IMG/VR virus record: IMGVR_UViG_3300035429_000172
Coordinates: 2,905-66,904 of that record
Origin: a virus
Lineage: Duplodnaviria > Caudoviricetes
Direction: 5' to 3' (one strand)
DNA length: 64,000 nt
Shown here: in pieces, positions 3,228 through 36,065 of the stretch
Position numbering within the stretch: the stretch's first letter is position 1
Layout of the letters: every line of letters begins with the position of its first letter
The notes under the pieces: generated by a model
What the model was told of the DNA's origin: nothing
Database searches by the model: none
Seen by the model: only the letters and a program-made list of their open reading frames with translations
Translations under genes and position numbers: made by a program

Positions 3228-4216
3228 GTCTGACTTACAAACTGCTTTGTTAATACTTCCAGAAGACTATCGACAAAATGCGTTTGAGTTTTTAACAGAA
3301 CATACCAATTATACCCCAGAAGACTTTATCGACTTTATTAAGGATCAATTAGATCAAATGCAACGTGCATATGAATATGAGCTGCAAGATAAAGATGATG
3401 AAATTGCAAGTCTACAAAATGATTATGAAGCTGCGGACTATGGATATGATGAACTTCAAGATGATTTTGAGGCCTTAGATGATGATTACGGCAAGTTAGA
3501 AGAGGAATTAATAACAGTGCAAAAAGAAAAAGAAGAATTAGCAGAATATGCTTTTGGATTGAAGAATGCATTGGATAAAGCCGGAGTTTATGTGGAGTTA
3601 AAACAACCAAGTTGTTTATTGCATAAAGAACTAATGAATTTTTATTCACGGAGTTAGCAAGATGAATCAAAAAGAAACAGTGTCATTAACAGAAGAGGAT
3701 ATAAAGAAACTGGCGAATGAGCTTTATAAACTTCAAAGAAGAGATGAGTTAGTTGAAAAAGATTCCCTATATTGTGATGGATGGATCAAATTAAGAAAAG
3801 AAATTAACGATTGGATTCATAGTAACATTAATCGTTCTGAGTATAGTTACTCTTCTCTTCAAATGCAGATTTATGGTGCAGTTAAATTTGTAACTGGCTG
3901 TAAAGGAGGACTTAGAGAAATGACTAATGAGCAATCGAAGGGTGCCAGATGGATTTTTGAACAAATGAAAGATGGCTTTGAAAGATATGGCACAAATCAA
4001 AAAAGGGAGAGAAATTAAATGAACGAATTAGAAAAGACAGTAACGGATTTAGGGCATATTCAAGCTAAAGCTCGCTTTGATTCAGACAAGTTTTTAAATG
4101 ACTTAAATAGTTACTTAAACGAATGTATGAAGCTATGGGTTACCAAATATTTAAACAATTACATTGAAGTGGACTTACCTAAGCTTGATGATACCGGTGA
4201 TAAAAATGGAGACTAG
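3220..4216 (+). CDS. Three hypothetical early genes (3220-3657 acidic coiled coil, 3662-4018, 4019-4216)
   Basis: Tightly coupled ORFs on the phage early strand. Confidence 0.65.
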
Positions 4217-22918: not shown

Positions 22919-23347
22919 TTGAATGCGTCACAAACCACTGTTTCTTTTGTTATTCCAGGACAGCCAGTAGGGCAAGGTAGACCGAGATTTACTACTAGAG
23001 GACGATATCCACATGCTGTTGACCCACCAAAATCACGGCAGTATAAAAATCTAGTGAAAAAACTTGCATATGATGCTTATCAGGGAGAACCGTTAGATGG
23101 GCCTATAAAAATTAAATTGATTCATTATTTTGAAATTCCCAAGAGTTATTCCAAAAAAAGAAAAAAGGCTTGTTTAGAAGGTACAGAAAGACCAACTAAA
23201 AAGCCAGATATCGATAATGTTTATAAAGGAATTGCTGATGCAATGAGTGGAATAATTTATCAGGACGATAAGCAGATAGTAGAAGATATGCAGGAGCAAT
23301 GGTATAGTTTAACGCCTTGTGTTAAAGTTGAGGTAATGCAAATATAA
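22919..23347 (+). CDS. rusA: RusA-family Holliday junction resolvase
   Basis: VGQGRPRF, KKPDIDNVYKGIADAMSGIIYQDDKQIV. Confidence 0.9.
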   Translation: MNASQTTVSFVIPGQPVGQGRPRFTTRGRYPHAVDPPKSRQYKNLVKKLAYDAYQGEPLDGPIKIKLIHYFEIPKSYSKKRKKACLEGTERPTKKPDIDNVYKGIADAMSGIIYQDDKQIVEDMQEQWYSLTPCVKVEVMQI

Positions 23348-23350
23348 TTG

Positions 23351-23391
23351 AAAGAGTTCTATTCATTTTATTGAGTAGAACTCTTTTTTTT
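23351..23391 (+). terminator. Intrinsic terminator ending the early operon
   Basis: AAAGAGTTCTA/TAGAACTCTTT stem followed by a T run. Confidence 0.85.
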
Positions 23392-23401
23392 AAAAATTCG
23401 C

Positions 23402-23430
23402 TTGTGACCATTTTAAAAACTACATATCAT
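23402..23430 (+). promoter_or_regulatory. Putative sigma-A promoter for the ncRNA cluster
   Basis: TTGTGA-N17-TATCAT. Confidence 0.5.
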
Positions 23431-23478
23431 AGAATATGTCCTAATAAAGAAGACATTTGACACAGTCCACATATTCTG

Positions 23479-23543
23479 TAGCCACCTTTTTATTTTTATA
23501 AGGAAAAAGCTAAAAGTAAAGGTTCGATTCCTTTAGTGGCTAT
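23479..23543 (+). ncRNA. tRNA top-half mimic 1
   Basis: Acceptor TAGCCAC/GTGGCTA, T arm TAAAGG-TTCGATT-CCTTTA, one middle arm CTTTT/AAAAG, no D arm or anticodon. Confidence 0.65.
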
Positions 23544-23746
23544 TGCCAGTTACTGGCAAATTTTCTCGAAGGTTTTTTGATCTGCTTTAGTACAGACGCA
23601 ACTAAGGCTTTGGAAATAATCAAATGCATATTTAAAAAGTGTAAGCAAATTCGTCTTATTTTTTGAAAAAGTGTCAGTGCATTTGATTGTCTTGGCGCAA
23701 TTGGATTTTTGATTTTAACCAATATATAGTTTGCAAATCTAATTGC

Positions 23747-23847
23747 TAAGTGAATAAGGGATAGCAAAAAATCATATTGAATTATTTATTTCGGTCAGAA
23801 TATTTTTACATCCGCTATCCTGGTGGTTCGACTCCACGTTCACTTAT
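23747..23847 (+). ncRNA. tRNA top-half mimic 2
   Basis: Acceptor TAAGTGAAT/GTTCACTTA, T arm GTGG-TTCGACT-CCAC, long middle arm GGATAGC/GCTATCC. Confidence 0.6.
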
Positions 23848-24024
23848 TAGGGTATGAATACAACCCTGACACTGGTTTACTAATCTTAATTGCTAATTTA
23901 GGCATAATAGGTTAATTAATTGAAGATGACGGTGTAATGCGCATCATTCCGTCAATAACGCAGAGAAAGCGAAACTCCAATTAATTGTGAAAGCGATGCT
24001 TAAGGAAAGCAGCTTTCCTGTTTG

Positions 24025-24106
24025 GGCAAAGTGGTCCAGTAGCAACGACAGCGGACTGTAAATCCGCCACCGAAAGGTTTCGCAGGTGCGAGTCCTGCCT
24101 TTGCCA
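24025..24106 (+). tRNA. tRNA-Tyr(GTA)
   Basis: GGCAAAG/CTTTGCC acceptor, GCGGA-CTGTAAA-TCCGC anticodon arm, long variable arm, GCAGG/CCTGC T stem, discriminator A. Confidence 0.9.
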
Positions 24107-24221
24107 TGAATAGCCGATGTTTGAGAGTTTAACGACTAATATAAGCAAATAAACAATTATGTGCGGTAATGGTAAATCGTACGTAAAATACCAAGTTAGT
24201 CACGAGGAAATCGTGCGTGTT

Positions 24222-24295
24222 GGCACCTTAGCTCAGTTGGTAGAGCGCTAGAGCGAAGTTCTAGGTCGTCGGTGGTTCAATTCCATCAGGTGCCA
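24222..24295 (+). tRNA. tRNA-Phe(GAA) with non-canonical anticodon loop
   Basis: GGCACCT/AGGTGCC, GCTC-AGTTGGTA-GAGC, CTAGA-GCGAAGT-TCTAG, GGTGG-TTCAATT-CCATC. Confidence 0.75.
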
Positions 24296-24442
24296 TTTAT
24301 ATTAATGGGCTATTGCTTACGATAAAAGATCGATCCGCTAGTAGCGCTTAAATAGTGGACCCCAATAAGAGCAACACTTTTACAAGTTAGTGACGGATCA
24401 TTACACAGCCATGGAGTGCAAATGGCGAGGATAAACTTGTGG

Positions 24443-24501
24443 TGCGTATGTTGGTACTCACGAAAATATAGTGAGGCAAGGTTCGACTCCTTGATACGCA
24501 A
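24443..24501 (+). ncRNA. tRNA top-half mimic 3 (59 nt, no D arm)
   Basis: TGCGTAT/ATACGCA acceptor, GTTGGTA linker, CTCAC-GAAAATATA-GTGAG arm, CAAGG-TTCGACT-CCTTG T arm. Confidence 0.75.
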
Positions 24502-24503
24502 TT

Positions 24504-25061
24504 TGTGTGAAGCTGGTGCATAAGGGACTGATAATCCTTCCAGCAATACTTCTTATAAAAACCTGGTGAACGTATTTGAGGGATACCGCAAATATTTTCT
24601 AGTCCAAAACGTAGTTGTTAGAGGGCATTGTGAAAGAAAGCAATCTAGGTTAGAAGCAAGGGCAACACACAGGAAACTAAAAACAAATACCGTGTGGCAA
24701 TCGAATAAATTCCGAACCTGCGTTGAATGATAGCAGGTGTAGGGACTCTAGTTAATATTGACTTTCTCTTAGTTAATAGAACCAAAAGAGTGTTAGAGAA
24801 TAAGATTGTAGCACCTTGATGCTGGGATAAAAACCAGCTATAAGCACACGAGTATTGTACAAGTAGCTCAAATGGTGCAATTTGATTATTACAAAATACA
24901 GAAAATCGTATTTCGAGTGAACGTTGAGTGGGATTGGTCCACGTCCTAGCTTATAAAACGTATATCAGCTTACAGGTCGCTCCTGTAAGTACGAGATATA
25001 TTGCTAGTAGTTTTAATATAGTCCTTGTGAAAGTTGCCGAGGTCCTAATAAGACCCACACA
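24504..25061 (+). ncRNA. Large structured RNA, ROOL-like (~560 nt)
   Basis: No ORF; closing TGTGTG/CACACA; helices ACCTGC/GCAGGT, GCTGG/CCAGC (twice), CTTACAGG/CCTGTAAG; blocks ATACCGCAAATATT, TCCGAACCTG, GTACAAGTAGC, GTTGAGTGGG, GTGAAAGTTG resemble ROOL as remembered; size and tRNA/prophage context fit. Confidence 0.7.
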
Positions 25062-25065
25062 TTTT

Positions 25066-25197
25066 TAGGGAATGACGAAATGGTCGTAATAGTTTTATAT
25101 ATTAATTTGCTATTTTTGTACGAAAATTTGCTAATACCAAGAGATACTCATAAATATTAACACTATAACTATTCTAGTTCGATTCTAGCATTTTCTA
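25066..25197 (+). ncRNA. tRNA-like element 4 with large insertion in place of the anticodon loop
   Basis: TAGGGAATG/CATTTTCTA acceptor, ACGA-AATGG-TCGT D-like arm, AATAGTT/AACTATT stem around about 70 nt, CTAG-TTCGATT-CTAG T arm. Confidence 0.6.
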
Positions 25198-25304
25198 TAC
25201 GTAGTGCCGTGACCCATTATTTTTCAATTTAAGTATCAGAGCTGCTTAAATTGACTATCTATTTTCAGACTGCTTTTTTTGTAGGTAGGATGGTAGCCTG
25301 CGGT

Positions 25305-25374
25305 AGATATTTAGTTCAAGTAGAACACCGCCATACATTCACCGGAGATATAGGTGCAATTCCTATGATATCTA
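25305..25374 (+). pseudogene. Degenerate tRNA
   Basis: AGATATT/GATATCT, GTTC-AAGTA-GAAC, ATAGG-TGCAATT-CCTAT; anticodon stem keeps only CCG/CGG. Confidence 0.65.
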
Positions 25375-25485
25375 TATAGCCTAAACTAAAAGGCTGTAAC
25401 CTTACAATTCAAATTCAATCATTACTAGTCTTGCGTCCAGATTCCCTTTCTTCTGGTCGCTTTTCTTTTATGGAGGAAAGAACAT

Positions 25486-25662
25486 TTGTTTAATTTCTTT
25501 AATAATTTAATTTTTAACATGACGCATACCTTGTTACCATGCACTCTATTTATCGCTAATTTTTTAGCACTTATTACAGTGGTATATTTCGCCGTTTGGG
25601 GTGTTGGGTTTGTGCTTGGCGGTTTAGCTGCACTTATTAATCATTTTACACGTAAGAATTAG
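25486..25662 (+). CDS. Small membrane protein (58 aa)
   Basis: GGAGG RBS, TTG start, two hydrophobic segments; not in the ORF track. Confidence 0.55.
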   Translation: MFNFFNNLIFNMTHTLLPCTLFIANFLALITVVYFAVWGVGFVLGGLAALINHFTRKN

Positions 25663-25674
25663 AGGTGACAGCAA

Positions 25675-26106
25675 TTGAGGAGACAAACACGAGCTTATAT
25701 CGAATCTCTACTTGAAGACTACATGAATTATCACAAATACAAGGCTCAAAGAGAGTTTGAGCTTCGTCATCCTTTTATTCCAGTAGATGAAAATGTGGGT
25801 GGCGGTAAAGCTCAATATAAACCAAATGATAGTGTCGACCGCATGTTAATCACACTGGATGAAGATATCAGATTGAACAATCTTCGACGTGAGCATTTTA
25901 CTATCAAAGCATGTTATGAAGAAGCACCGGAATACGTACAACAGATAGTAAATGAATTGTATTTTAAAGCTCCAAGAAACAGAAAGTATTTAACCATTGC
26001 TGATCTAGTGATTGCACATGTCATCCCTGTTAGCAAAACAAAGGCTTATGATGCTTTCAATGACTTTTTAGAAGATATAGCAAAGGAATTAAAGTTGCAT
26101 TACTAA
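25675..26106 (+). CDS. ArpU/RinA-family late transcriptional activator
   Basis: IESLLEDY..ELRHPF..DENVGGGK; typical position. Confidence 0.8.
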   Translation: MRRQTRAYIESLLEDYMNYHKYKAQREFELRHPFIPVDENVGGGKAQYKPNDSVDRMLITLDEDIRLNNLRREHFTIKACYEEAPEYVQQIVNELYFKAPRNRKYLTIADLVIAHVIPVSKTKAYDAFNDFLEDIAKELKLHY

Positions 26107-28334: not shown

Positions 28335-28901
28335 ATGGCAAAAACACTCATCCTTATTATTTTTTATTTTTGCATCGGTATAGCAATAGGACTACTGATT
28401 GCAAAGCTTAAAGCGCTTAAGAAAAAAGATGTTGAATTAGAATTACAAGAGAAAATTGATACACTAAAAATTGAAAAAGAAGAAATCACTTTAGAAAACG
28501 AAAAATTAAAAAATTTTCTTGAAGAAAAACAAAACGAAATAACACAGAATTCGGTTCAAAACAAATTCGATGAGTTCTGTTCCAGATACAAGTCAGATGC
28601 TATCGCAAAGATTAAGTTGAAAAATAAAAAGTTAGTCCTTACAGGATTTATTAATGAAACTCAACTAGAACAATCGCTAGCATTAAATACCAAATATGTA
28701 TCTTTTTATAGAATACAGAGTAAAATACCATACAGTATTTCTAAAGTTTTCTTTGGAACTTCATATATTAACGAATTAAGCGATAAATATTATTGGAGCG
28801 ACGGATGGATAAAGCCAAAAGATTATGCGATAGATTGGAAAACATCTAGAATGTATATAAAATTATCAGATCTTGAAGACATAGAAATTGAAAGTGACTA
28901 A
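28335..28901 (+). CDS. Membrane-anchored coiled-coil protein
   Basis: N-terminal TM helix followed by heptad-rich region. Confidence 0.65.
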   Translation: MAKTLILIIFYFCIGIAIGLLIAKLKALKKKDVELELQEKIDTLKIEKEEITLENEKLKNFLEEKQNEITQNSVQNKFDEFCSRYKSDAIAKIKLKNKKLVLTGFINETQLEQSLALNTKYVSFYRIQSKIPYSISKVFFGTSYINELSDKYYWSDGWIKPKDYAIDWKTSRMYIKLSDLEDIEIESD

Positions 28902-29066
28902 TAAATAGTTAGTGCTGAGAGGAGCATTCTAAGTTCTTTAAAAAGTATTTAGGCCAATTAATCGAAATAGAAACATTAGATTTTAAAGAAGCATACATTG
29001 ATTAGAGATAGATAGTATAATTATTTTAAGATCAACTTTGATGGCCGTAGGAGTAGGTATCAAAGT

Positions 29067-29095
29067 AAGCTCTCTGATTACAGGAGAGCTTTTTT
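29067..29095 (+). terminator. Intrinsic terminator
   Basis: AAGCTCTCT/GGAGAGCTT plus T run. Confidence 0.7.
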
Positions 29096-29105
29096 GTAGG
29101 GAGGG

Positions 29106-29402
29106 ATGAATAAAGTGACAAAAAGAATAAAGCCTAAATGGCAGCTTGAAAAAGAACAAAGTAAAAAGGGGAGGATTTTTGATTCTCTAAATGATTATGC
29201 CAATTCTCTCCGAAAAGCTTTTGAAAATTTAGGTAAAACATTTCATTGGGGATATAGTAAAACGAAAAGTAAAGATACTGGTGGGATAGTAACTGCTAAT
29301 ACCATTACTTTGTTTAAGGATAGGAACGATGAAATTAGAAAGAAAGCCGATCAGCTATCGAAAAGACTAGACGAGTTAGAAAGAAAAATAAACGGGCATT
29401 AA
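29106..29402 (+). CDS. Hypothetical protein
   Basis: GGAGG RBS, followed by a hairpin and T run. Confidence 0.55.
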   Translation: MNKVTKRIKPKWQLEKEQSKKGRIFDSLNDYANSLRKAFENLGKTFHWGYSKTKSKDTGGIVTANTITLFKDRNDEIRKKADQLSKRLDELERKINGH

Positions 29403-29542
29403 AAATATTATATATTAATTATTGCTATTGTACTTTCCTTGAAAGAAAGCAATGGCTTTTTTTATGTCCTTAAAAAGGTTTGTATTCTAACCCCGTCGAT
29501 TTCGACCGGTTTAAATTTTTTTGCGGGAGTTATCTAACTCGA

Positions 29543-29571
29543 TTGTGACCATTATTAATCATCCCTATAAT
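29543..29571 (+). promoter_or_regulatory. Putative sigma-A promoter
   Basis: TTGTGA-N17-TATAAT. Confidence 0.6.
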
Positions 29572-30076
29572 GAACTAAGATAGCTTTATAGGGGGGATAA
29601 AATGCGGTTGAAAAATTAATCGACCGTTTTTGCGACCGTTTTTAGTTAGAATAAAAATTAAACGCCCTAGCTTTTACGAACTGGGGCGTACTTTATTGAA
29701 TAGAAAGAGTTTAATTATATGCTATCTAATTTTAATGTTGCATTTGGATTTGTTAGAAACTATGGACGTATTTTATTTAAACAGGCTGGTATTTACTATG
29801 ATGGTACTAATGTAGTTGTCAGAATGCTCAATAATGGCAGTTTAGTAGTGGTGTCAAAAAATGTCGTCCCAACACAACTATCCTATAAATGTCGTAACTT
29901 ACTTGATATGTCAATGGACAAAGGGGAGAGTTAATTGTGACTACAAAAGAATTTGAGCAAGAAATAAAGACAGGCCTAAATAAATTGAGTGAACAGGATA
30001 TTAAACGTATAAGGGATGAGTTCAATTCTGAGCCAGATTATTCTATTCCTAGTCAAAGCCCAAAAAATAATCGTCT

Positions 30077-30230
30077 CAAAAATGATAGGGGGGTATATTT
30101 TTCATTTGAAAATTCGAAAATTTAGAGTCTTCAAAAATGACAGGGGGATAAAATTTTTATTTCAAAACTCGAAAAAATTAGACCTTCAAAAATTAATGGG
30201 GGGTATATTTTTCATTTCAAAAATTGTTTT
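30077..30230. repeat. Three degenerate 55-bp tandem repeats
   Basis: Units start CAAAAAT at 30077, 30132, 30187, each with a G5-6 run then ATATTTTTCATTT-like sequence. Confidence 0.8.
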
Positions 30231-30254
30231 TTCAGTAAAGTAGGAGACTTAGTA

Positions 30255-30931
30255 ATGCCAGATTTCAATATATTTCATATGAAAAATGATCCAATAAATT
30301 TGGACTCAGATCAAGTTTGCGAAATAAGACGAATATACGATAGTAGAAGAACAAAGAGTAAATATTGGTGTCCCTTTTGTGATTTTCACATAGGAAATGA
30401 TGAAACAACTAAAATTGCTGAATTAGAAATACCAACAAAGGTTAAAGAAGCGAATCTATATCATGGCTACATCTTTTCATCATTAGATATGGAAAATTTG
30501 TGGGATTATCCTACTAATTGGTTAAGTGAAATTAGAATGCTGGTTAAAGCTAATAATTGCTATGGTTTATATAGAGAAATTACAGATTCTCACAGGATAA
30601 GCAGCGCTTATATATCAATAGTAAAGAGATGTCCTAAATGTAATAGGAGGTTAACAGATTGGGAAAAAGACCTGTTATATATAAAAAGCACCCCATGAAG
30701 GGATGCTATAAGATGAACAAACATGATAGATGGAAAGCTGAAATGCTGTTAAACAGTGATTGGATGAAACGATTTACACATATCACTAATGCAATGATTT
30801 ATGATGAAGCCACAAGAATTAGTGGCATCGACTGGTTTACTGATAAAAACTATAGCTCGCATAAATACACAGAAGTAAAACTACAAGCAGCTCATAATCT
30901 AAGAAAGAAGTACATTAAATATGCAAGATAA
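30255..30931 (+). CDS. Zinc-binding hypothetical (30255-30698) and hypothetical ORF ending 30931
   Basis: CPFC..CPKC; coupled ORFs. Confidence 0.6.
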
Positions 30932-31187
30932 AGATTTTTTATATCAATCAGTTCATAAAACTTGGGAACAATTGAAACTTCCTGCTGAACTTATGGATCA
31001 ATATTGATATCAACCACGTGTAGTTTGGCAGTCATACATTGCTGGCAACCGAAAAATGATGTTTTTCTTGGATGCATTTAAAGATCCGTGTCATGTGGGT
31101 AATTTCTACATTGAATGCACTTTTGTGGCACATGACTGCTCACTTTCGATTGATATTTATCAGCTACATTCTCACAACTCATACTGA
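30921..31187 (+). pseudogene. Hypothetical gene with in-frame TGA
   Basis: MQDKDFLYQSVHKTWEQLKLPAELMDQY, TGA 31005-31007, same frame stays open to TGA 31185-31187. Confidence 0.55.
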
Positions 31188-31595
31188 TCCAGAAAATAAG
31201 AGAATTTATTCCCAGAAAAAGCATGCTTTTTATATATACAGAAGAAAAATTTTTTCTGAAAAAAGCATGCTTTTTATATATGCTTATTTGGCTTTCATCC
31301 CGGAAAACTTTTTCTTTGAAAAGATCTTTCTTCTATATATCTAAATATCTAATTTGAACACATGTTCGCTTACTATTATATAGTCGTAATGTAATTAAAA
31401 GCTTCTATATAATGTAGAGAAAACATGCTAACAGCTCTAAAAAGGGCTATTTTTGCCCGCTAGCACCTTTTTTCTCCCTACACTTCTAATTGTATTCATG
31501 TTTTTAAAAATCTTAGTTGCTAGCTATCTACCTTATATAGATAAATCCTTATTTAGTAAGTGTTCAGACTATGCGAAAAAAGTTTATAAAAGGGG

Positions 31596-31624
31596 TTGAC
31601 TAATTTAAATCATAATATTATGAT
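31596..31624 (+). promoter_or_regulatory. Promoter/operator, cassette A
   Basis: TTGACT-N17-TATGAT overlapping perfect palindrome ATCATAATATTATGAT (31609-31624). Confidence 0.8.
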
Positions 31625-31716
31625 CATTGTGTAAGGTTGATTAAGGCAAAATAAAAAGCCTTAAAGGTAGAGCCCTCAAGACCTTACTAAATTTAATAGC
31701 AAAGGGCGCAAAAGCC

Positions 31717-31812
31717 ATGAGTATTACAGTAACTTTTGCGGATCCTAAAATAATTTTATTTATTGTAGCTGTTTGTGTTTGGCTATATGAACAGCACAAA
31801 AATAAAAAATAA
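31717..31812 (+). CDS. 31-aa hydrophobic peptide, type I toxin-like (cassette A)
   Basis: MSITVTFADPKIILFIVAVCVWLYEQHKNKK; not in the ORF track. Confidence 0.65.
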   Translation: MSITVTFADPKIILFIVAVCVWLYEQHKNKK

Positions 31813-31881
31813 GATTCGTAAAGGGTAAGCTTAAAGGCTTGCCCTTTGCTATAAGTATACCATATAAAAGGAGTTTGAAAA

Positions 31882-32124
31882 ATGGTATTAAGTGAAGAAG
31901 AAAAGAAAAGAAGACATAGAGAAGCACAAAGGCGCTATAATGCTAGACGCATAAAAAAGAGACTAGCAGGAGACAAAAAGGAATTAGAACAGTATGAAAG
32001 AGACAAAGCCAATTCAATGTATGGGAATGTTAAGAGTTATATAAGCGAACAGGCAACAAAAGCCCAATTATTAGAATTTAGGGACTTAATAGCAGAACGC
32101 CAGAAAAAACTTTCAAAAAAATAA
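31882..32124 (+). CDS. Small basic helical protein (cassette A)
   Basis: REAQRRYNARR..YISEQATKAQLLEFRDLIAER; paralog of 33933 and 34274. Confidence 0.75.
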   Translation: MVLSEEEKKRRHREAQRRYNARRIKKRLAGDKKELEQYERDKANSMYGNVKSYISEQATKAQLLEFRDLIAERQKKLSKK

Positions 32125-32134
32125 ATAAAAAGTA

Positions 32135-32163
32135 TTGACTATCATAATATTATGATATATTAT
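32135..32163 (+). promoter_or_regulatory. Promoter/operator, unit A2
   Basis: TTGACT-N17-TATTAT with palindrome TATCATAATATTATGATA (32140-32157). Confidence 0.8.
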
Positions 32164-32346
32164 AAATATGTAAGTTGAAGAGGGAACAAAAAAAGCCCAG
32201 TGCGGGAACACTGAGCAAACTCAAAAACTTATAAAGTGTCTAAACAATATAAATAGTAGGCTAGAAGCCTTTTAATTTGAGTAACTATATAATACCAAAT
32301 TAGAAGCTTCTAGTCTAGCAAAATTTAGATTAGGAGTGTTTTTATT

Positions 32347-33355
32347 ATGGTTAAAAATGAAGTAAAAGAATTTAATGTTTACGGTAATGTTTACGGTGTA
32401 AGCCTTTGGCGTTCTGGTATGGCTGCGATTTTTGATATGTTAGACGGCTTAGCAGGCAGTAAAGAAAATAGTGAATTACATGAATATAAACAAGCACTAA
32501 ACCAAGAAGGAACATACAGCCTAAAAATTAACGGTAAATTTAACCCGAACAGCGTTTCAAGTTCTGAACTATTTAATAATTTTGCTGATGATTTAAAAGC
32601 TAATATCTTAAATAGTGAGCTTGAACAAGTTGGATTTAGTAAAGAATGGTTAATAAGTCAACATAATAAATTAGTTGAAATAGCTATCAACTTAAACAAG
32701 AACAAAGTAGAAATTGAATATTAAGAGGTGTTGAAAATGAAGACTATAAAAAATGTTGCAGACGTTAAAAGTTTAGATATAATAGCAGCATTTAAACAAG
32801 CAAAAAAGGTTTATTACGATACAGTTGAAGAAGTTTGCGGGAGTATAACCGCCTATAACACCCCTAAACAATCTAACAAAATTGATGAAGCACTAAAAAA
32901 ATACGATAAAAAATTTTATATTAACAATCGTCAATTTTTAGAAATTTCCATCATTGATGCAAGTTTTGAAAAATATGGCGTCGGGGCGCTATTTATAGGC
33001 TTTAACGATGACACGGGCGAGAACTTCAACCACTATCCCTCGGCAAGCTTTGAGGTGTGTTATTCACTTAGTGAAGTTGCTTACTATTGGAATGATTTTT
33101 TAAAGCGATTGAATGAAAATACTTTTATTTACAGATAGAAGAAACAAAGTGAAAAAAATAAAATTTGTGTTTATTGAGTATGTGCCGGCTAGCAAGAAAC
33201 TAGAAGAATTTGAAGAAGTCGCAAGCTTTGCGCCTGAATTGATGGAAGTTGCACAGCGGACTTTTAAAAGTTATAAAAAGAGCTTAGAAAATAGCGAAAA
33301 TGATTGCTATTTAGGCATTCAATACCAAGACGGCGACAGCGAAAAAATTATGTAA
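32347..33355 (+). CDS. Three hypothetical proteins downstream of the A2 promoter (32347-32724, ORFs ending 33138 and 33355)
   Basis: ORFs with RBS; followed by a broken ORF remnant and a terminator at 33604-33635. Confidence 0.6.
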
Positions 33356-33644
33356 AGGAGTATTTAAAATGTTAGAAAGTGAAGTATTTACAACAGTAGC
33401 AGGATATAAAAAGCATTAGCTAATTTAGTTATTAAAGCAGCAAAGCAAAATAAAAAATAAGTTTGCTTGGTATATATCTATGTGATGCAAATAGCGGTGG
33501 ACTAGATGAAAACGAAATACAATTTTTTGAACGAATAGTGAAAGACGGCAAAAAGGACGGGCGTAAGTGGGTTCTAAGATATCCTAAGACAATATAAAAC
33601 AATAAAAAAGACGGCTAAAGTAGCCGTTTTTATTTATATTTTAC

Positions 33645-33673
33645 TTGATTTTATATCTTATAAGGTATATTAT
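33645..33673 (+). promoter_or_regulatory. Promoter/operator, cassette B
   Basis: TTGATT-N17-TATTAT with near-palindrome TATATCTTATAAGGTATA (33652-33669). Confidence 0.75.
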
Positions 33674-33778
33674 AATACTTGTGATGGGGATGGAATGGTA
33701 AACCTGAAACCTCACACGTGGCAAAGTAAAAGCCGTGGGCTTTTGCAGAACCCACGGCAACAATAGAAAGGGTAAGCA

Positions 33779-33871
33779 ATGACCATCACAATAACTATTG
33801 CTAGTCCCTACTTCTTAATTATTATTATAGCGGGAATAATTGCCGTTGTAAACAATAAGAAAAAGAAGTAA
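33779..33871 (+). CDS. 30-aa hydrophobic peptide, type I toxin-like (cassette B)
   Basis: MTITITIASPYFLIIIIAGIIAVVNNKKKK; homologous to the cassette A peptide. Confidence 0.7.
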   Translation: MTITITIASPYFLIIIIAGIIAVVNNKKKK

Positions 33872-33932
33872 AGAGCTATAACGTGGGTAAGTCGGAGGGC
33901 TTGCCCTTTCTATTTATATAAGGGGCTTTATT

Positions 33933-34133
33933 ATGAAAACAAGCAACGCACAACGAAAAGCAAATAAAAAATATAAGGATAACCACCCAGACAAACAACG
34001 CACTTACGTCGCAAGGTCAACCGCTAAGCGTTTTGTAAAAGAACTTGCAACACTTAAAGACTTAGACGAACTAACGGCGCTTATACAAGCTAAACGCCAA
34101 GAACTAAGAGAAGGCGAGAACGATGAAAAATAA
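33933..34133 (+). CDS. Small basic helical protein B1
   Basis: SNAQRKANKKY..RSTAKRFVKELATLKDLDELTALI. Confidence 0.8.
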   Translation: MKTSNAQRKANKKYKDNHPDKQRTYVARSTAKRFVKELATLKDLDELTALIQAKRQELREGENDEK

Positions 34134-34305
34134 GGCAATTCAAAATGGTATCACTTTAATTGTTTTATTAAGCTTTTTAATTGGCGCAATAAAAGAAAGA
34201 AGTATACTATTAGCAACAATCTTTTTTATAGGTATAATCATTTTTATAATTGTTAAGTTAAGAGGTGGGAACGATGGCAACGGAAGCACAAAAAAAGGCT
34301 CGTGA
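34123..34305 (+). CDS. Small two-TM membrane protein
   Basis: Two hydrophobic segments; overlaps neighbouring genes. Confidence 0.6.
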   Translation: MKNKAIQNGITLIVLLSFLIGAIKERSILLATIFFIGIIIFIIVKLRGGNDGNGSTKKGS

Positions 34306-34459
34306 TAAGTGGAAGGCTAAGAATAAAGAAAAGAACGCGCTTATTAATAAGCGATCGACGGCAAGAAGTTTTATAAGAAGGTTCGCTAGCTTGGAAGACT
34401 TGGAAGAGTTAAAAGGGCTAATAAAGGAACGCGAAACCGAGCTAAAAAGCGAAAAATAA
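34274..34459 (+). CDS. Small basic helical protein B2
   Basis: TEAQKKARDKW..RSTARSFIRRFASLEDLEELKGLIKER. Confidence 0.8.
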   Translation: MATEAQKKARDKWKAKNKEKNALINKRSTARSFIRRFASLEDLEELKGLIKERETELKSEK

Positions 34460-34472
34460 TTTATTAATTCTC

Positions 34473-34501
34473 TTGACTCTATACCCTATAGGGTATATTA
34501 T
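34473..34501 (+). promoter_or_regulatory. Promoter/operator, cassette C
   Basis: TTGACT-N17-TATTAT with perfect palindrome TATACCCTATAGGGTATA (34480-34497). Confidence 0.8.
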
Positions 34502-34578
34502 AATATATGTAAGGAGGTTGAAAGCCTTAACCGAGTAAACTTCCTTACGATTCCCGAATAGTGGGAGGTGGTCGGCAC

Positions 34579-34728
34579 TTGGCTTATAAGTCACGTAAAG
34601 ACTACCAGCGAAAAATAAGGGCACAAAAAAAGGCGAAAAGATGGAACTTAATAGAACATCTTAACACCTTAATAAACCTTATTATAGCGCTGGTTCAGCT
34701 CTGGTTACTTTACCACCAATACCACTAA
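34579..34728 (+). CDS. 49-aa basic/hydrophobic peptide (cassette C)
   Basis: GGGAGG RBS, TTG start, MAYKSRKDYQRKIRAQKKAKRWNLIEHLNTLINLIIALVQLWLLYHQYH. Confidence 0.55.
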   Translation: MAYKSRKDYQRKIRAQKKAKRWNLIEHLNTLINLIIALVQLWLLYHQYH

Positions 34729-34804
34729 GGGAAGTAACCACTAAGGGGCGAGCGTTAAGGGCTTGCCCTTTTGTGGTTTTATTATACCATGAAGGAGCTT
34801 TATT

Positions 34805-34966
34805 ATGAAAAAAAGAAAAAACATTATTAAGTTAATAGATTTTATTGTGCTTCTGATTGCTCTTTTTACTTTAGTTTTTTATGAATTTGATACATATAAA
34901 TTAATTTCTGGGCTGGTTGTTTTATCGTGTAGCATTTCATTATATATAGAAACATTTAAAAATTAA
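34805..34966 (+). CDS. 53-aa two-TM membrane protein (cassette C)
   Basis: AAGGAG RBS; MKKRKNIIKLIDFIVLLIALFTLVFYEFDTYKLISGLVVLSCSISLYIETFKN. Confidence 0.65.
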   Translation: MKKRKNIIKLIDFIVLLIALFTLVFYEFDTYKLISGLVVLSCSISLYIETFKN

Positions 34967-34980
34967 GATAAACGAATTTA

Positions 34981-35012
34981 AAGGCTATCTATTTATTTAG
35001 GTAGCCTTTTTT
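34981..35012 (+). terminator. Intrinsic terminator closing the cassette array
   Basis: AAGGCTATCTA/TAGGTAGCCTT plus T run. Confidence 0.8.
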
Positions 35013-35672
35013 ATTTGCTCATTTAATAACATATGTTTGCTTAGCTTCAATGGCTATTAAAGCTTATATCATTAAGCAACTATAAGACTAATAAGAGAGA
35101 TACACACGACAACACCAGCACCCAAAGCATAGACATCGAACAAGCTAAACTACTAAGACACTTAAGGCTTAACTATATAAGGAAGAAGGTAACGGCACGA
35201 GCTTATAGACCACAACCCAAACAACACCAGTAAGACTATGCACGCGAACAATTACAACTACAACACTATTACTATTTCTTATCATATTACTAAGAACACA
35301 AGTAAGAGAATAGAAAAAACATACCAGCAAGACGCAGGAGCACACAAGAGCACAACAAGGCTATATAAGGCAAGTAATACCACAATACTACAAACTCATA
35401 TATTAAGTGTGTCACGTGCGGAAAAAATGCGGAACCATTGGACGGCTTAAGGTGCTATATTGATAGCATACAGAACTAGAGTTCAGGACGCGCACGCGTG
35501 CGGCTGCTGGCTGTACCTTGTACCATCGCATACGATAGCACACCACACCAGCGACGCGACCACGTGAGACACTACACACGATAGACAAGCAAGACAACGA
35601 CAAGAATAACAATTATAAATTACTTTTGTTTTTTCTTTTTTTGTTTTATAAAAAAAGATTTTTCTTCTTTCT

Positions 35673-36065
35673 TTGTCGTTTGTTGCTACACTATCAGCAA
35701 TCCAACACAGCAAGAGAAGAGCAGACACAGTGAACCGATACAGATACGAGACAAACAACAATACTTTCTACCATTCGCAAGCGTGGAGAACGCTACGACG
35801 TCAAGCGCTCGAACGTGATAAACATCTTTGCCAAATCTGTTTGCAACACAACGAACTCACGTTTGCCGATACAGTACACCACATTAAGCCTATAAGGGAA
35901 AACGACTCGGAAAAATTGTGCCTTGAAAACCTTGTGACTGTTTGCCGTAAGTGCCACAACGAGCTACACCGTGAAAAGCCTATGACTTTAAAAAAGAAAA
36001 AAAGACGTTTAAACAACTATACCAATTTAGTGAAACGGTTCACAAACAACAAAGAAGTATGGTGA
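35673..36065 (+). CDS. HNH endonuclease (packaging-associated); start uncertain
   Basis: CQIC..VHHIKP..NLVTVCRKCHNELH directly upstream of terS. Confidence 0.9.
   Translation: MSFVATLSAIQHSKRRADTVNRYRYETNNNTFYHSQAWRTLRRQALERDKHLCQICLQHNELTFADTVHHIKPIRENDSEKLCLENLVTVCRKCHNELHREKPMTLKKKKRRLNNYTNLVKRFTNNKEVW

What the first reader, a model, noticed from the sequence alone, without database searches (positions are those of the whole stretch)
23402..25400. A 2-kb all-RNA operon built around a ROOL-like giant RNA
Seen: one promoter, no credible ORF, and an alternation of tRNAs, tRNA mimics and folded spacers around a ~560 nt highly paired RNA. Known: ROOL and GOLLD RNAs occur next to tRNAs in Firmicute prophages and their function is unknown. 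The ROOL match is from memory.
Basis: partly seen in the sequence, partly recalled or inferred. Interest (0 to 1): 0.8.

Follow-up and report, generated by a model that had tools for sequence, protein, structure and literature searches.

The report
ROOL RNA in prophage tRNA island
A Lactobacillus-type prophage carries a genuine copy of the known giant ROOL RNA inside a 2-kb gene-free stretch with two normal tRNA genes and several tRNA look-alikes that cannot read codons; one look-alike touches the start of ROOL and probably marks where the cell's tRNA-trimming enzymes cut it free.

Summary
Rfam ROOL (RF03087) matches 24488-25074 (+) over its full length at 130.4 bits (cut-off 99.1). GOLLD does not match.

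The ORF-free island runs about 23393-25470. A very strong terminator follows the upstream RusA gene, and a hairpin with a U-tract sits at 25433-25469.

The island holds:
- tRNA-Tyr and tRNA-Phe
- three non-decoding tRNA "top-half" elements, A, B and C, each with a 7-bp acceptor stem and a T arm
- one tRNA-like pseudo-tRNA, E

A fifth proposed mimic, D, is not supported. Most spacers fold no better than shuffled sequence. "One promoter" remains a guess.

A diverged relative (L142) keeps the helices of A (its T arm and the hairpin after it), B and C through compensatory changes. C ends one base before the ROOL terminal helix. An unrelated Lactobacillales provirus (L128) has ROOL bracketed exactly by a tRNA-like element and tRNA-Gln. 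The L. salivarius ROOL, whose ends were mapped by RACE, and most streptococcal-type ROOL loci lack such flanks.

Best reading: a co-transcribed precursor cut by RNase P and RNase Z. ROOL next to tRNA islands in prophages is published, so this is a new member of a known kind with a testable maturation detail. The scan has already noted similar tRNA-mimic arrays on other Lactobacillus prophage DNA.

The parts
23350..23391 (+). Intrinsic terminator of the upstream RusA-like gene (16-bp stem plus U8); 5' boundary of the RNA island
   Evidence: Fold -21.7 kcal/mol, z -7.3, 0 of 200 shuffles as good. RusA-like assignment: phrog_140, 4e-47.
23402..23430 (+). Candidate promoter P1 (TTGTGA-17-TATCAT)
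   Evidence: 9/12 consensus match. Both hexamers are unchanged in L136, L139 and L147. Not evidence of function.
23479..23543 (+). tRNA-like element A: 7-bp acceptor stem, AU-rich arm, canonical T arm, no D arm or anticodon loop; discriminator A followed by U
   Evidence: Fold z -2.2. ARAGORN calls it only in mitochondrial mode. Rfam tRNA scores 22 bits, below the cut-off. Two T-stem pairs are compensated in L142.
23543..23566 (+). Hairpin (7 bp) plus AUUUUCU after A; weak terminator-like site
   Evidence: Flagged by the terminator scan. Only -7.3 kcal/mol. One compensated pair, and a U8 tract in L142.
23701..23730 (+). Conserved TTGGAT-18-TATAGT block just upstream of B; possible second promoter (inferred)
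   Evidence: 79% identical to L142, against 44% for the B-Tyr spacer. Not called by the promoter scan.
23747..23846 (+). tRNA-like element B: acceptor stem, one long irregular arm, T arm
   Evidence: Fold z -3.8. The L142 counterpart is 66% identical yet folds to the same architecture, z -4.0. Changes in L105 and L136 are mostly G-U-compatible.
24025..24106 (+). tRNA-Tyr (GUA), class II, no encoded CCA
   Evidence: Rfam 53 bits; ARAGORN. 92% identical to the tRNA-Tyr and tRNA-Phe stretch of prophage Lj965. Two compensated T-stem pairs across lineages.
24221..24296 (+). tRNA-Phe (GAA), no encoded CCA; anticodon loop GCGAAGU with C33 in this copy
   Evidence: Rfam 54 bits; ARAGORN. L105, L136 and L147 have U33; L139 reads GCAAGGU.
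24443..24501 (+). tRNA-like element C: 7-bp acceptor stem, 5-bp hairpin, 5-bp T stem with loop UUCGACU, discriminator A24501; abuts ROOL
   Evidence: Fold z -2.9, MFE frequency 0.69. On A4 the acceptor and T stems are 100% paired, with 3 pairs changed on both sides; 2 of 500 shuffles reach the whole-structure measures. The L142 counterpart folds to the same shape, z -3.0.
24488..25074 (+). ROOL RNA (Rfam hit). Predicted mature RNA runs from about 24502 to about 25066-25074; terminal helix 24504-24509 pairs with 25056-25061
   Evidence: RF03087, 130.4 bits against GA 99.1, E 1e-26, model 1-574. 84% identical to L142 and 98% to L105, L136 and L147.
25161..25197 (+). Element D: 4-bp T-arm-like hairpin (UUCGAUU loop); not supported as a tRNA mimic
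   Evidence: Folds z -0.5 and +0.5, and the T arm is absent from the MFE structure. Conserved only in close relatives.
25305..25374 (+). Element E: tRNA-like pseudo-tRNA with acceptor, D and T arms and a 3-bp 'anticodon' stem with an oversized loop
   Evidence: Rfam tRNA 40 bits against GA 29, in the sensitive scan only. ARAGORN calls it only at a relaxed threshold, with a 4-base anticodon. One D-stem pair is compensated in L147.
25433..25469 (+). Hairpin plus UUUUCUUUU tract; likely 3' end of the RNA island, just before the RBS of a 58-aa ORF (25486)
   Evidence: Fold of 25375-25485, z -3.2. Missed by the simple terminator scan, probably because of its 10-nt loop (the scan allows loops of 3-8).

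Best explanation
The stretch from about 23393 to 25470 is a non-coding RNA island of a temperate Lactobacillus-type phage. It lies between the recombination genes (RusA) and a phage transcriptional regulator.

It encodes, all on the + strand:
- a bona fide ROOL RNA
- two decoding tRNAs, Tyr and Phe
- three conserved non-decoding tRNA 'top halves' (A, B, C) and a tRNA-like pseudo-tRNA (E)

Shown here: ROOL identity, the tRNAs, and the structural conservation of A, B and C. C ends at discriminator A24501, three bases before the first pair of the ROOL terminal helix.

Inferred: the island is transcribed as one or two long precursors. The host tRNA-end enzymes then cut at every acceptor/T-arm module. 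RNase P cuts at the 5' side. RNase Z cuts right after the discriminator, because all modules lack an encoded CCA and carry A-U at that point. RNase Z cleavage of C would therefore create the ROOL 5' end at U24502.

By homology with the solved ROOL structures, the released ~570-nt RNA would self-assemble into the octameric nanocage. The cellular role of that cage is still unknown.
For: ROOL identity:
- RF03087 scores 130.4 bits (GA 99.1) over model positions 1-574.

tRNAs and tRNA-like modules:
- Two tRNAs are called by both Rfam and ARAGORN.
- T-loop motifs cluster: 5 of 6 in 64 kb, and 0 of 100 shuffles reach 6.
- A, B and C fold autonomously as acceptor stem plus T arm.
- In element C, the acceptor and T stems are 100% paired across 5 lineages, with 3 double-sided changes. 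The L142 versions of B and C are only 66-68% identical yet fold to the same shapes, z -3 to -4.
- Every module, and both tRNAs, lacks CCA and has discriminator A followed by U.

Geometry in other ROOL loci:
- In the unrelated provirus L128/L135 a tRNA-like element ends one base before the ROOL terminal helix. tRNA-Gln starts two bases after that helix.
- In L122 a tRNA lies 15 nt after ROOL.

Boundaries:
- A strong terminator lies upstream and a hairpin with a U-tract lies downstream.

Literature:
- RNase Z cuts immediately 3' of the discriminator of CCA-less precursors in Bacillus and Streptococcus (PMC1874595, PMC8549757).
- Co-transcription of ROOL with tRNAs was already suggested (PMC5737381).
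- ROOL forms an octameric cage (PMC12286853).
- From my own knowledge: an acceptor stem plus T arm is the minimal RNase P and RNase Z substrate.
Against: - No expression or end-mapping data exist for this locus.
- Promoter calls are weak.
- A terminator-like hairpin follows A, so the island may not be one unit.
- The window has no supported tRNA-like element at the ROOL 3' end; D fails.
- tRNA-like flanks are not general to ROOL. The RACE-mapped L. salivarius ROOL has none.
- In the unbiased motif sample, only 3 of 6 sequence clusters have an abutting tRNA or tRNA-like element. The 29-member streptococcal-type cluster does not.
- The covariation rests on few independent lineages, essentially the window type against L142.
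Confidence: 0.6

Rival explanations
1. The tRNA top-half mimics are products in their own right. After release they act as decoys or sponges for proteins that bind the acceptor/T-arm half of tRNA. Candidates are host defence toxins that modify or cut tRNA 3' ends, the CCA-adding enzyme, or other tRNA-binding factors. Cutting ROOL free would then be incidental.
For: - A, B and C keep exactly the acceptor/T-arm half under compensatory change while the lower half is replaced.
- Similar orphan T-arm modules recur in related Lactobacillus prophage tRNA islands that carry no ROOL: L130-L134 and Lj965.
- The anticodon loop of the neighbouring tRNA-Phe varies among near-identical lineages. That would fit pressure from tRNA-targeting defence.
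Against: - No binding partner or defence gene is linked to the island by any test here.
- The mimics lack anticodon loops, so they cannot decoy anticodon nucleases.
- The exact abutment of C (and of the L128 element) to the ROOL helix is not explained by this reading.
Confidence: 0.2
2. The look-alikes are decaying tRNA genes of an old phage tRNA island with no present function. ROOL would be transcribed and matured independently of them.
For: - The syntenic slot of Lj965 holds four ordinary tRNAs.
- Phage tRNA islands often hold aberrant tRNAs. E and D look like decay products.
- ROOL does not need tRNA flanks in L. salivarius or in the streptococcal-type loci.
Against: - Random decay should break helices. 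Instead, helices of A, B and C are kept by double-sided changes at only 66-68% sequence identity.
- The same half of the tRNA is spared in every element.
- The junction geometry recurs in an unrelated ROOL lineage.
Confidence: 0.12
3. Element C is not cut off. It stays covalently joined to the ROOL 5' end, so each subunit of the cage carries a tRNA-like handle. This would resemble the tRNAs embedded in some GOLLD linkers.
For: - The Rfam ROOL alignment runs into the 3' half of C.
- GOLLD RNAs with covalently linked tRNAs are discussed in PMC12286853.
- The C-ROOL junction is conserved in all window-type lineages and in L142.
Against: - The first pairs of the model's outer helix are non-canonical where they overlap C.
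- C has the CCA-less A-U context typical of RNase Z substrates.
- In L128 the 3' flank is an ordinary tRNA-Gln that must be released to function.
Confidence: 0.08

Closest known systems
ROOL RNA (Rfam RF03087; Weinberg et al. 2017, PMC5737381; cryo-EM nanocage, Kretsch et al. 2025, PMC12286853; L. salivarius lncRNA, Cousin et al. 2017, PMC5643018)
   Same: - Full-length covariance-model match above the curated cut-off.
- About 570-590 nt, with the conserved sequence islands.
- A variable linker at the expected place.
- Prophage location beside tRNA genes.
   Different: - The score is moderate (130 bits, against 260-360 for the streptococcal copies).
- The 5' end is abutted by a non-decoding tRNA-like element. 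I did not find this feature in the ROOL papers I read, nor in a full-text search for 'GOLLD' with 'tRNA-like'.
Phage tRNA islands, e.g. the four tRNAs of L. johnsonii prophage Lj965 (NC_005355)
   Same: - Same genome slot, between the early and recombination genes and the packaging genes.
- The tRNA-Tyr and tRNA-Phe stretch is 92% identical.
- Lj965 also has an unannotated T-arm element upstream of its tRNAs.
   Different: - Lj965 has no ROOL.
- It carries Ser and Glu tRNAs where the window has the non-decoding elements A and B.
tRNA-like processing handles: mascRNA at the 3' end of MALAT1, plant mitochondrial t-elements, the mitochondrial tRNA punctuation model, and the small stable RNAs C and D co-transcribed with phage T4 tRNAs (from my own knowledge)
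   Same: The logic is the same: a tRNA-shaped module without decoding function, placed directly against a long non-coding RNA, so that RNase P or RNase Z defines that RNA's end.
   Different: - Bacterial prophage context.
- The handle sits at the 5' side of the long RNA, which predicts an RNase Z cut.
- No sequence relation to these elements.
- Cleavage has not been shown here.
GOLLD RNA (Rfam RF01998)
   Same: A large ornate phage-associated RNA found next to, or containing, tRNAs; it also forms a nanocage.
   Different: No GOLLD match in the region, even at E<=10. It is a different family.

Membership tests
ROOL (RF03087) | Covariance-model score at or above the curated gathering score (99.1 bits) | tested here: met
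   130.4 bits, E 1.2e-26 on the whole window. The same hit appears in the sensitive scan and in the genome search.
ROOL (RF03087) | Full-length architecture of about 580 nt covering all model helices | tested here: met
   Model positions 1-574 are aligned to 587 nt without truncation.
ROOL (RF03087) | Conserved sequence islands (GGAUAC, GUACAAGUAGC, GGUCGCUCC and others) | tested here: met
   Present in the alignment. The two-motif core pattern recovers ROOL loci elsewhere, all of which pass the model where checked.
ROOL (RF03087) | Poorly conserved internal linker (disordered in the cryo-EM structure) | tested here: met
   Indels and low identity among lineages fall at about 24868-24905, which is the long loop of the model.
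ROOL (RF03087) | Prophage or phage context, often next to tRNA genes | tested here: met
   IMG/VR provirus record; RusA and a phage regulator flank the island; two tRNAs lie within 470 nt.
ROOL (RF03087) | Self-assembly into a homo-octameric cage | not testable with these tools
   Known only from cryo-EM of other members (PMC12286853).
ROOL (RF03087) | Stable, abundant transcript of the predicted size | not testable with these tools
   No transcript data are available for this provirus.
GOLLD (RF01998) | Covariance-model match | tested here: not met
   No GOLLD hit in 23200-25800 at E<=10, nor in the window at gathering score.
tRNA (RF00005), applied to elements A, B and C | Cloverleaf with a D arm and a 7-nt anticodon loop; score at or above 29 bits | tested here: not met
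   A scores 22 bits; B and C give no hit. ARAGORN calls them only in mitochondrial or relaxed mode. The folds lack a D arm and anticodon loop.
tRNA (RF00005), applied to element E | Cloverleaf with a functional anticodon arm | tested here: inconclusive
   40 bits, above the cut-off. But the anticodon stem has 3 bp with a 12-nt loop. ARAGORN rejects it at the default threshold.
tRNA-like processing handle (mascRNA or t-element type) | Acceptor stem stacked on a T arm (12-bp minihelix) without decoding parts, placed directly against another RNA | tested here: met
   A, B and C have 7 + 5 bp with 7-nt T loops. C ends three bases before the first pair of the ROOL helix.
tRNA-like processing handle (mascRNA or t-element type) | Actual cleavage by RNase P and/or RNase Z | not testable with these tools
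   Needs end mapping or in vitro cleavage.
YrlA / tmRNA (other bacterial tRNA mimics) | Model match | tested here: not met
   No YrlA hit in the region. ARAGORN finds no tmRNA.

The most novel reading that the evidence does not exclude
Non-decoding tRNA top halves are a conserved, functional class of phage RNA in Lactobacillaceae. In some lineages they have been recruited as built-in RNase P/RNase Z handles that set the ends of the ROOL cage RNA. The released top halves, or a ROOL cage still carrying them, then engage host tRNA-binding proteins such as acceptor-end-targeting defence toxins or the CCA-adding enzyme. This would give ROOL its first functional link to tRNA biology.
Probability: 0.2. 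Interest if true: 0.75.

Novelty: new member of a known kind. Interest (0 to 1): 0.42.

Why it matters
ROOL is one of the largest bacterial RNAs. It was recently shown to build an RNA-only cage, and it still has no known function.

This locus adds nothing to the fact that ROOL sits beside tRNA genes in prophages. It does give a sharp, cheap-to-test prediction of how the RNA gets its ends: an RNase Z cut between A24501 and U24502, directed by a structurally conserved tRNA look-alike. The bracketed arrangement recurs in another lineage.

If confirmed, it would tie ROOL biogenesis to the tRNA-processing machinery. It would also give a defined construct for expression and assembly studies in lactobacilli.

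Tried and rejected
- GOLLD, YrlA, tmRNA and other Rfam families give no hit in the island.
- Protein coding is rejected: the ORFs are 78 aa or shorter, mostly antisense, and have no Pfam hits.
- Element D fails as a tRNA mimic, with either possible acceptor pairing.
- 'Folded spacers': z-scores near zero for three of four spacers. The spacers do hold conserved blocks; those either side of the tRNA-Phe slot are 71-72% identical to L142.
- I tested whether the spacer after tRNA-Phe is a remnant of a second ROOL 3' end. The local alignment is only marginal: score 25 against a shuffle mean of 18.8, with 17 of 500 shuffles as good.
- I looked for support from the RACE-mapped L. salivarius ROOL. That locus has no tRNA-like flank, so it neither supports nor contradicts the processing model for this lineage.
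- BLAST against phage and plasmid collections found only the tRNAs (Lj965) and no ROOL homologue.
- The order-wide ROOL scan with the genome search failed three times for technical reasons.
- More of the L142 contig could not be fetched. The 5' strand of its element A and its region downstream of ROOL remain unseen.
Full report
**What is there**

A whole-window Rfam scan gives three hits above gathering score:
- ROOL (RF03087) at 24488-25074 (+), 130.4 bits against a cut-off of 99.1, covering model positions 1-574
- a tRNA at 24025-24106
- a tRNA at 24222-24295

ARAGORN names the tRNAs Tyr(GUA) and Phe(GAA). A sensitive scan of 23200-25800 repeats these hits. It adds a third tRNA-model hit at 25305-25374 (40 bits, cut-off 29) and a sub-threshold one at 23484-23542 (22 bits). 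GOLLD and YrlA give nothing, even at E<=10.

**Context**

The window is part of a 66.9-kb IMG/VR provirus rated complete. All large ORFs are on the + strand.

The tRNA-Tyr and tRNA-Phe stretch is 92% identical to that of Lactobacillus johnsonii prophage Lj965. In Lj965 the same slot holds four annotated tRNAs and no ROOL. The terminase region is 73% identical to L. fermentum phages.

Upstream lies a RusA-like resolvase (phrog_140, 4e-47). Downstream lie a 58-aa ORF and a phage transcriptional regulator (phrog_36).

The RusA gene ends in a 16-bp hairpin plus U8 (-21.7 kcal/mol, z -7.3). A hairpin with a UUUUCUUUU tail lies at 25433-25469, just before the next ribosome-binding site. Between these marks no ORF exceeds 78 aa, most are antisense, and none has a Pfam match.

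**The tRNA look-alikes**

The T-loop motif GGTTCGANTCC (one mismatch allowed) occurs six times in 64 kb. Five occurrences lie on the + strand within 23521-24490. Shuffles give a mean of 1.3, and none of 100 reaches six.

- Elements A (23479-23543), B (23747-23846) and C (24443-24501) fold on their own into a 7-bp acceptor stem stacked on a 5-bp T stem with a 7-nt T loop. One unrelated arm replaces the D and anticodon arms. z-scores are -2.2, -3.8 and -2.9.
- ARAGORN recognises them only in its mitochondrial or relaxed modes.
- Element E (25305-25374) has acceptor, D and T arms but only a 3-bp 'anticodon' stem with a 12-nt loop.
- The proposed element D (about 25121-25197) does not fold as a tRNA mimic with either possible acceptor pairing.
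- Three of four spacers fold no better than shuffles (z 0.0, -0.6, -1.1). Only 25199-25302 reaches -2.2.

**Relatives and covariation**

A pattern joining the T loop to the first ROOL hairpin recovered three groups:
- close relatives of the window array: L105, L136, L139, L140 and L147, 89-99% identical
- one diverged relative: L142, a metagenome contig
- a second lineage: L128, L135 and six others

The six-way alignment A3 gives these identities between the window and L142:

| Segment | Identity to L142 |
|---|---|
| tRNA-Tyr | 92% |
| ROOL | 84% |
| Spacers either side of the tRNA-Phe slot | 71-72% |
| Element C | 68% |
| Element B | 66% |
| B-Tyr spacer | 44% |

Despite this divergence, the L142 versions of B and C fold into the same architectures (z -4.0 and -3.0).

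For C, the acceptor and T stems are 100% paired in five lineages, with three pairs changed on both sides. Only 2 of 500 shuffles reach the whole-structure measures, which also count the register-shifted hairpin, and slid registers collapse to 30-49% paired. The middle hairpin is register-shifted in the MAFFT alignment. Read from the two independent folds, it changes CUCAC/GUGAG to CAUGCA/UGCAUG.

Further compensated pairs:
- A has two in its T stem and one in the hairpin that follows it.
- E has one in its D stem.
- The two true tRNAs show the same kind of change.

This argues against simple decay. It rests on few independent lineages.

**Geometry at ROOL**

The acceptor 3' strand of C ends at 24500, and the discriminator is A24501. 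The ROOL terminal helix (24504-24509 pairing with 25056-25061) begins three bases later. The Rfam alignment marks its own outermost pairs as non-canonical where they overlap C.

All modules and both tRNAs lack an encoded CCA and have discriminator A followed by U.

In the L128/L135 lineage (ROOL at 148-160 bits) a different, cloverleaf-like non-decoding element ends one base before the terminal helix. tRNA-Gln starts two bases after the helix, and further tRNAs follow: four in L128 and two in L135. In L122 a tRNA lies 15 nt after ROOL.

This is not general:
- The motif-based, unbiased sample of 37 ROOL loci falls into six clusters at 90% identity. Three have an abutting tRNA or tRNA-like element. 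The 29-member streptococcal-type cluster has none.
- The L. salivarius pMP118 ROOL, whose ends were mapped by circular RACE, also scores 130.4 bits. It has no tRNA or T-arm upstream (PMC5643018).

**Mechanism**

Established knowledge: in Bacillus and streptococci, RNase Z cuts CCA-less precursors immediately after the discriminator, and RNase P acts on such precursors (PMC1874595, PMC8549757). From my own knowledge, an acceptor stem plus T-arm minihelix is enough for both enzymes.

I therefore infer that the island is made as one or two precursors and cut at each module. RNase Z cleavage of C would create the ROOL 5' end at U24502. By homology, the freed RNA would form the octameric cage described for ROOL (PMC12286853).

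Weinberg et al. already suggested co-transcription with tRNAs (PMC5737381). I did not find the precise, non-decoding handle at the ROOL end in the papers I read, nor in a full-text search for 'GOLLD' with 'tRNA-like'.

Open points:
- Promoter use is unknown. The 23402-23430 match is weak. A conserved TTGGAT-18-TATAGT block precedes B, and a weak terminator-like hairpin follows A.
- How the ROOL 3' end is made in this lineage is unknown.
- Whether A, B, C and E have roles of their own (decoys, or handles that stay on the cage) is unknown.

**Verdict**

ROOL beside tRNA islands in Firmicute prophages is published, so this is a new member of a known kind. Its added value is a concrete, testable maturation model.

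Earlier notes of this scan describe similar arrays of non-decoding tRNA mimics in other Lactobacillus prophages. One of them remarks that related phages carry ROOL at that spot. I treated these as leads only.

Noticed in passing
window 24252-24260 (tRNA-Phe anticodon loop); L105, L136, L139, L147 in alignment A3: The anticodon loop of the phage tRNA-Phe differs among near-identical lineages. The window has GCGAAGU, with C33 instead of the near-universal U33. L105, L136 and L147 have GUGAAGU. L139 has GCAAGGU, which ARAGORN reads as Leu(AAG). The stems change only by compensated pairs. This could be decay, or pressure from anticodon-targeting defence.
   Followed up: partly
L139:2361-4371: In one relative, a DNA methylase gene (Pfam N6_N4_Mtase, 3e-34) is inserted in the island. 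It is flanked by a duplication of the leader, element A, the conserved block and element B. The start of the island therefore acts as a moron insertion point.
   Followed up: partly
window 24192-24203 and 24383-24394; L128:1465-1480: The 12-nt motif CAAGTTRGTSAC occurs twice in the window (expected 0.01). Each copy lies about 20-60 nt upstream of a tRNA or tRNA-like element. Both are invariant in L142. A similar CCAAGTTGGTCAC sits inside the tRNA-like element before ROOL in L128. Its meaning is unknown.
   Followed up: no
window 24298-24323 and 25098-25123: A repeat of about 26 nt (TATATTAAT..GCTATT...TACGA) follows both tRNA-Phe and, 24 nt downstream, the ROOL 3' end. It is only marginally above chance (17 of 500 shuffles).
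   Followed up: partly
L001 (Lj965) about 3440-3500; L130, L133, L134: Lj965 and related prophage tRNA islands without ROOL carry unannotated T-arm/acceptor elements, each followed by AU and a hairpin that often starts (U)AGCC or UGCC. Their T stems covary among lineages. The non-decoding modules are therefore not tied to ROOL.
   Followed up: partly
L136:5408-5507, L139:4272-4371: ARAGORN at default settings calls the element B homologue a 100-nt 'tRNA-Asn(att)' in two relatives but not in the window. Automatic annotation of these elements is unstable.
   Followed up: no
L146:769-861: A metagenome contig has a normal tRNA (read by eye as Trp, anticodon CCA) followed directly by a hairpin that resembles the first ROOL hairpin. 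No ROOL follows; more tRNAs do.
   Followed up: no
window 28901-30255, 30698-32347, 33138-35673: Further stretches without ORFs of 100 aa or more lie elsewhere in the prophage. Other notes of the scan deal with part of them. They were not examined here.
   Followed up: no
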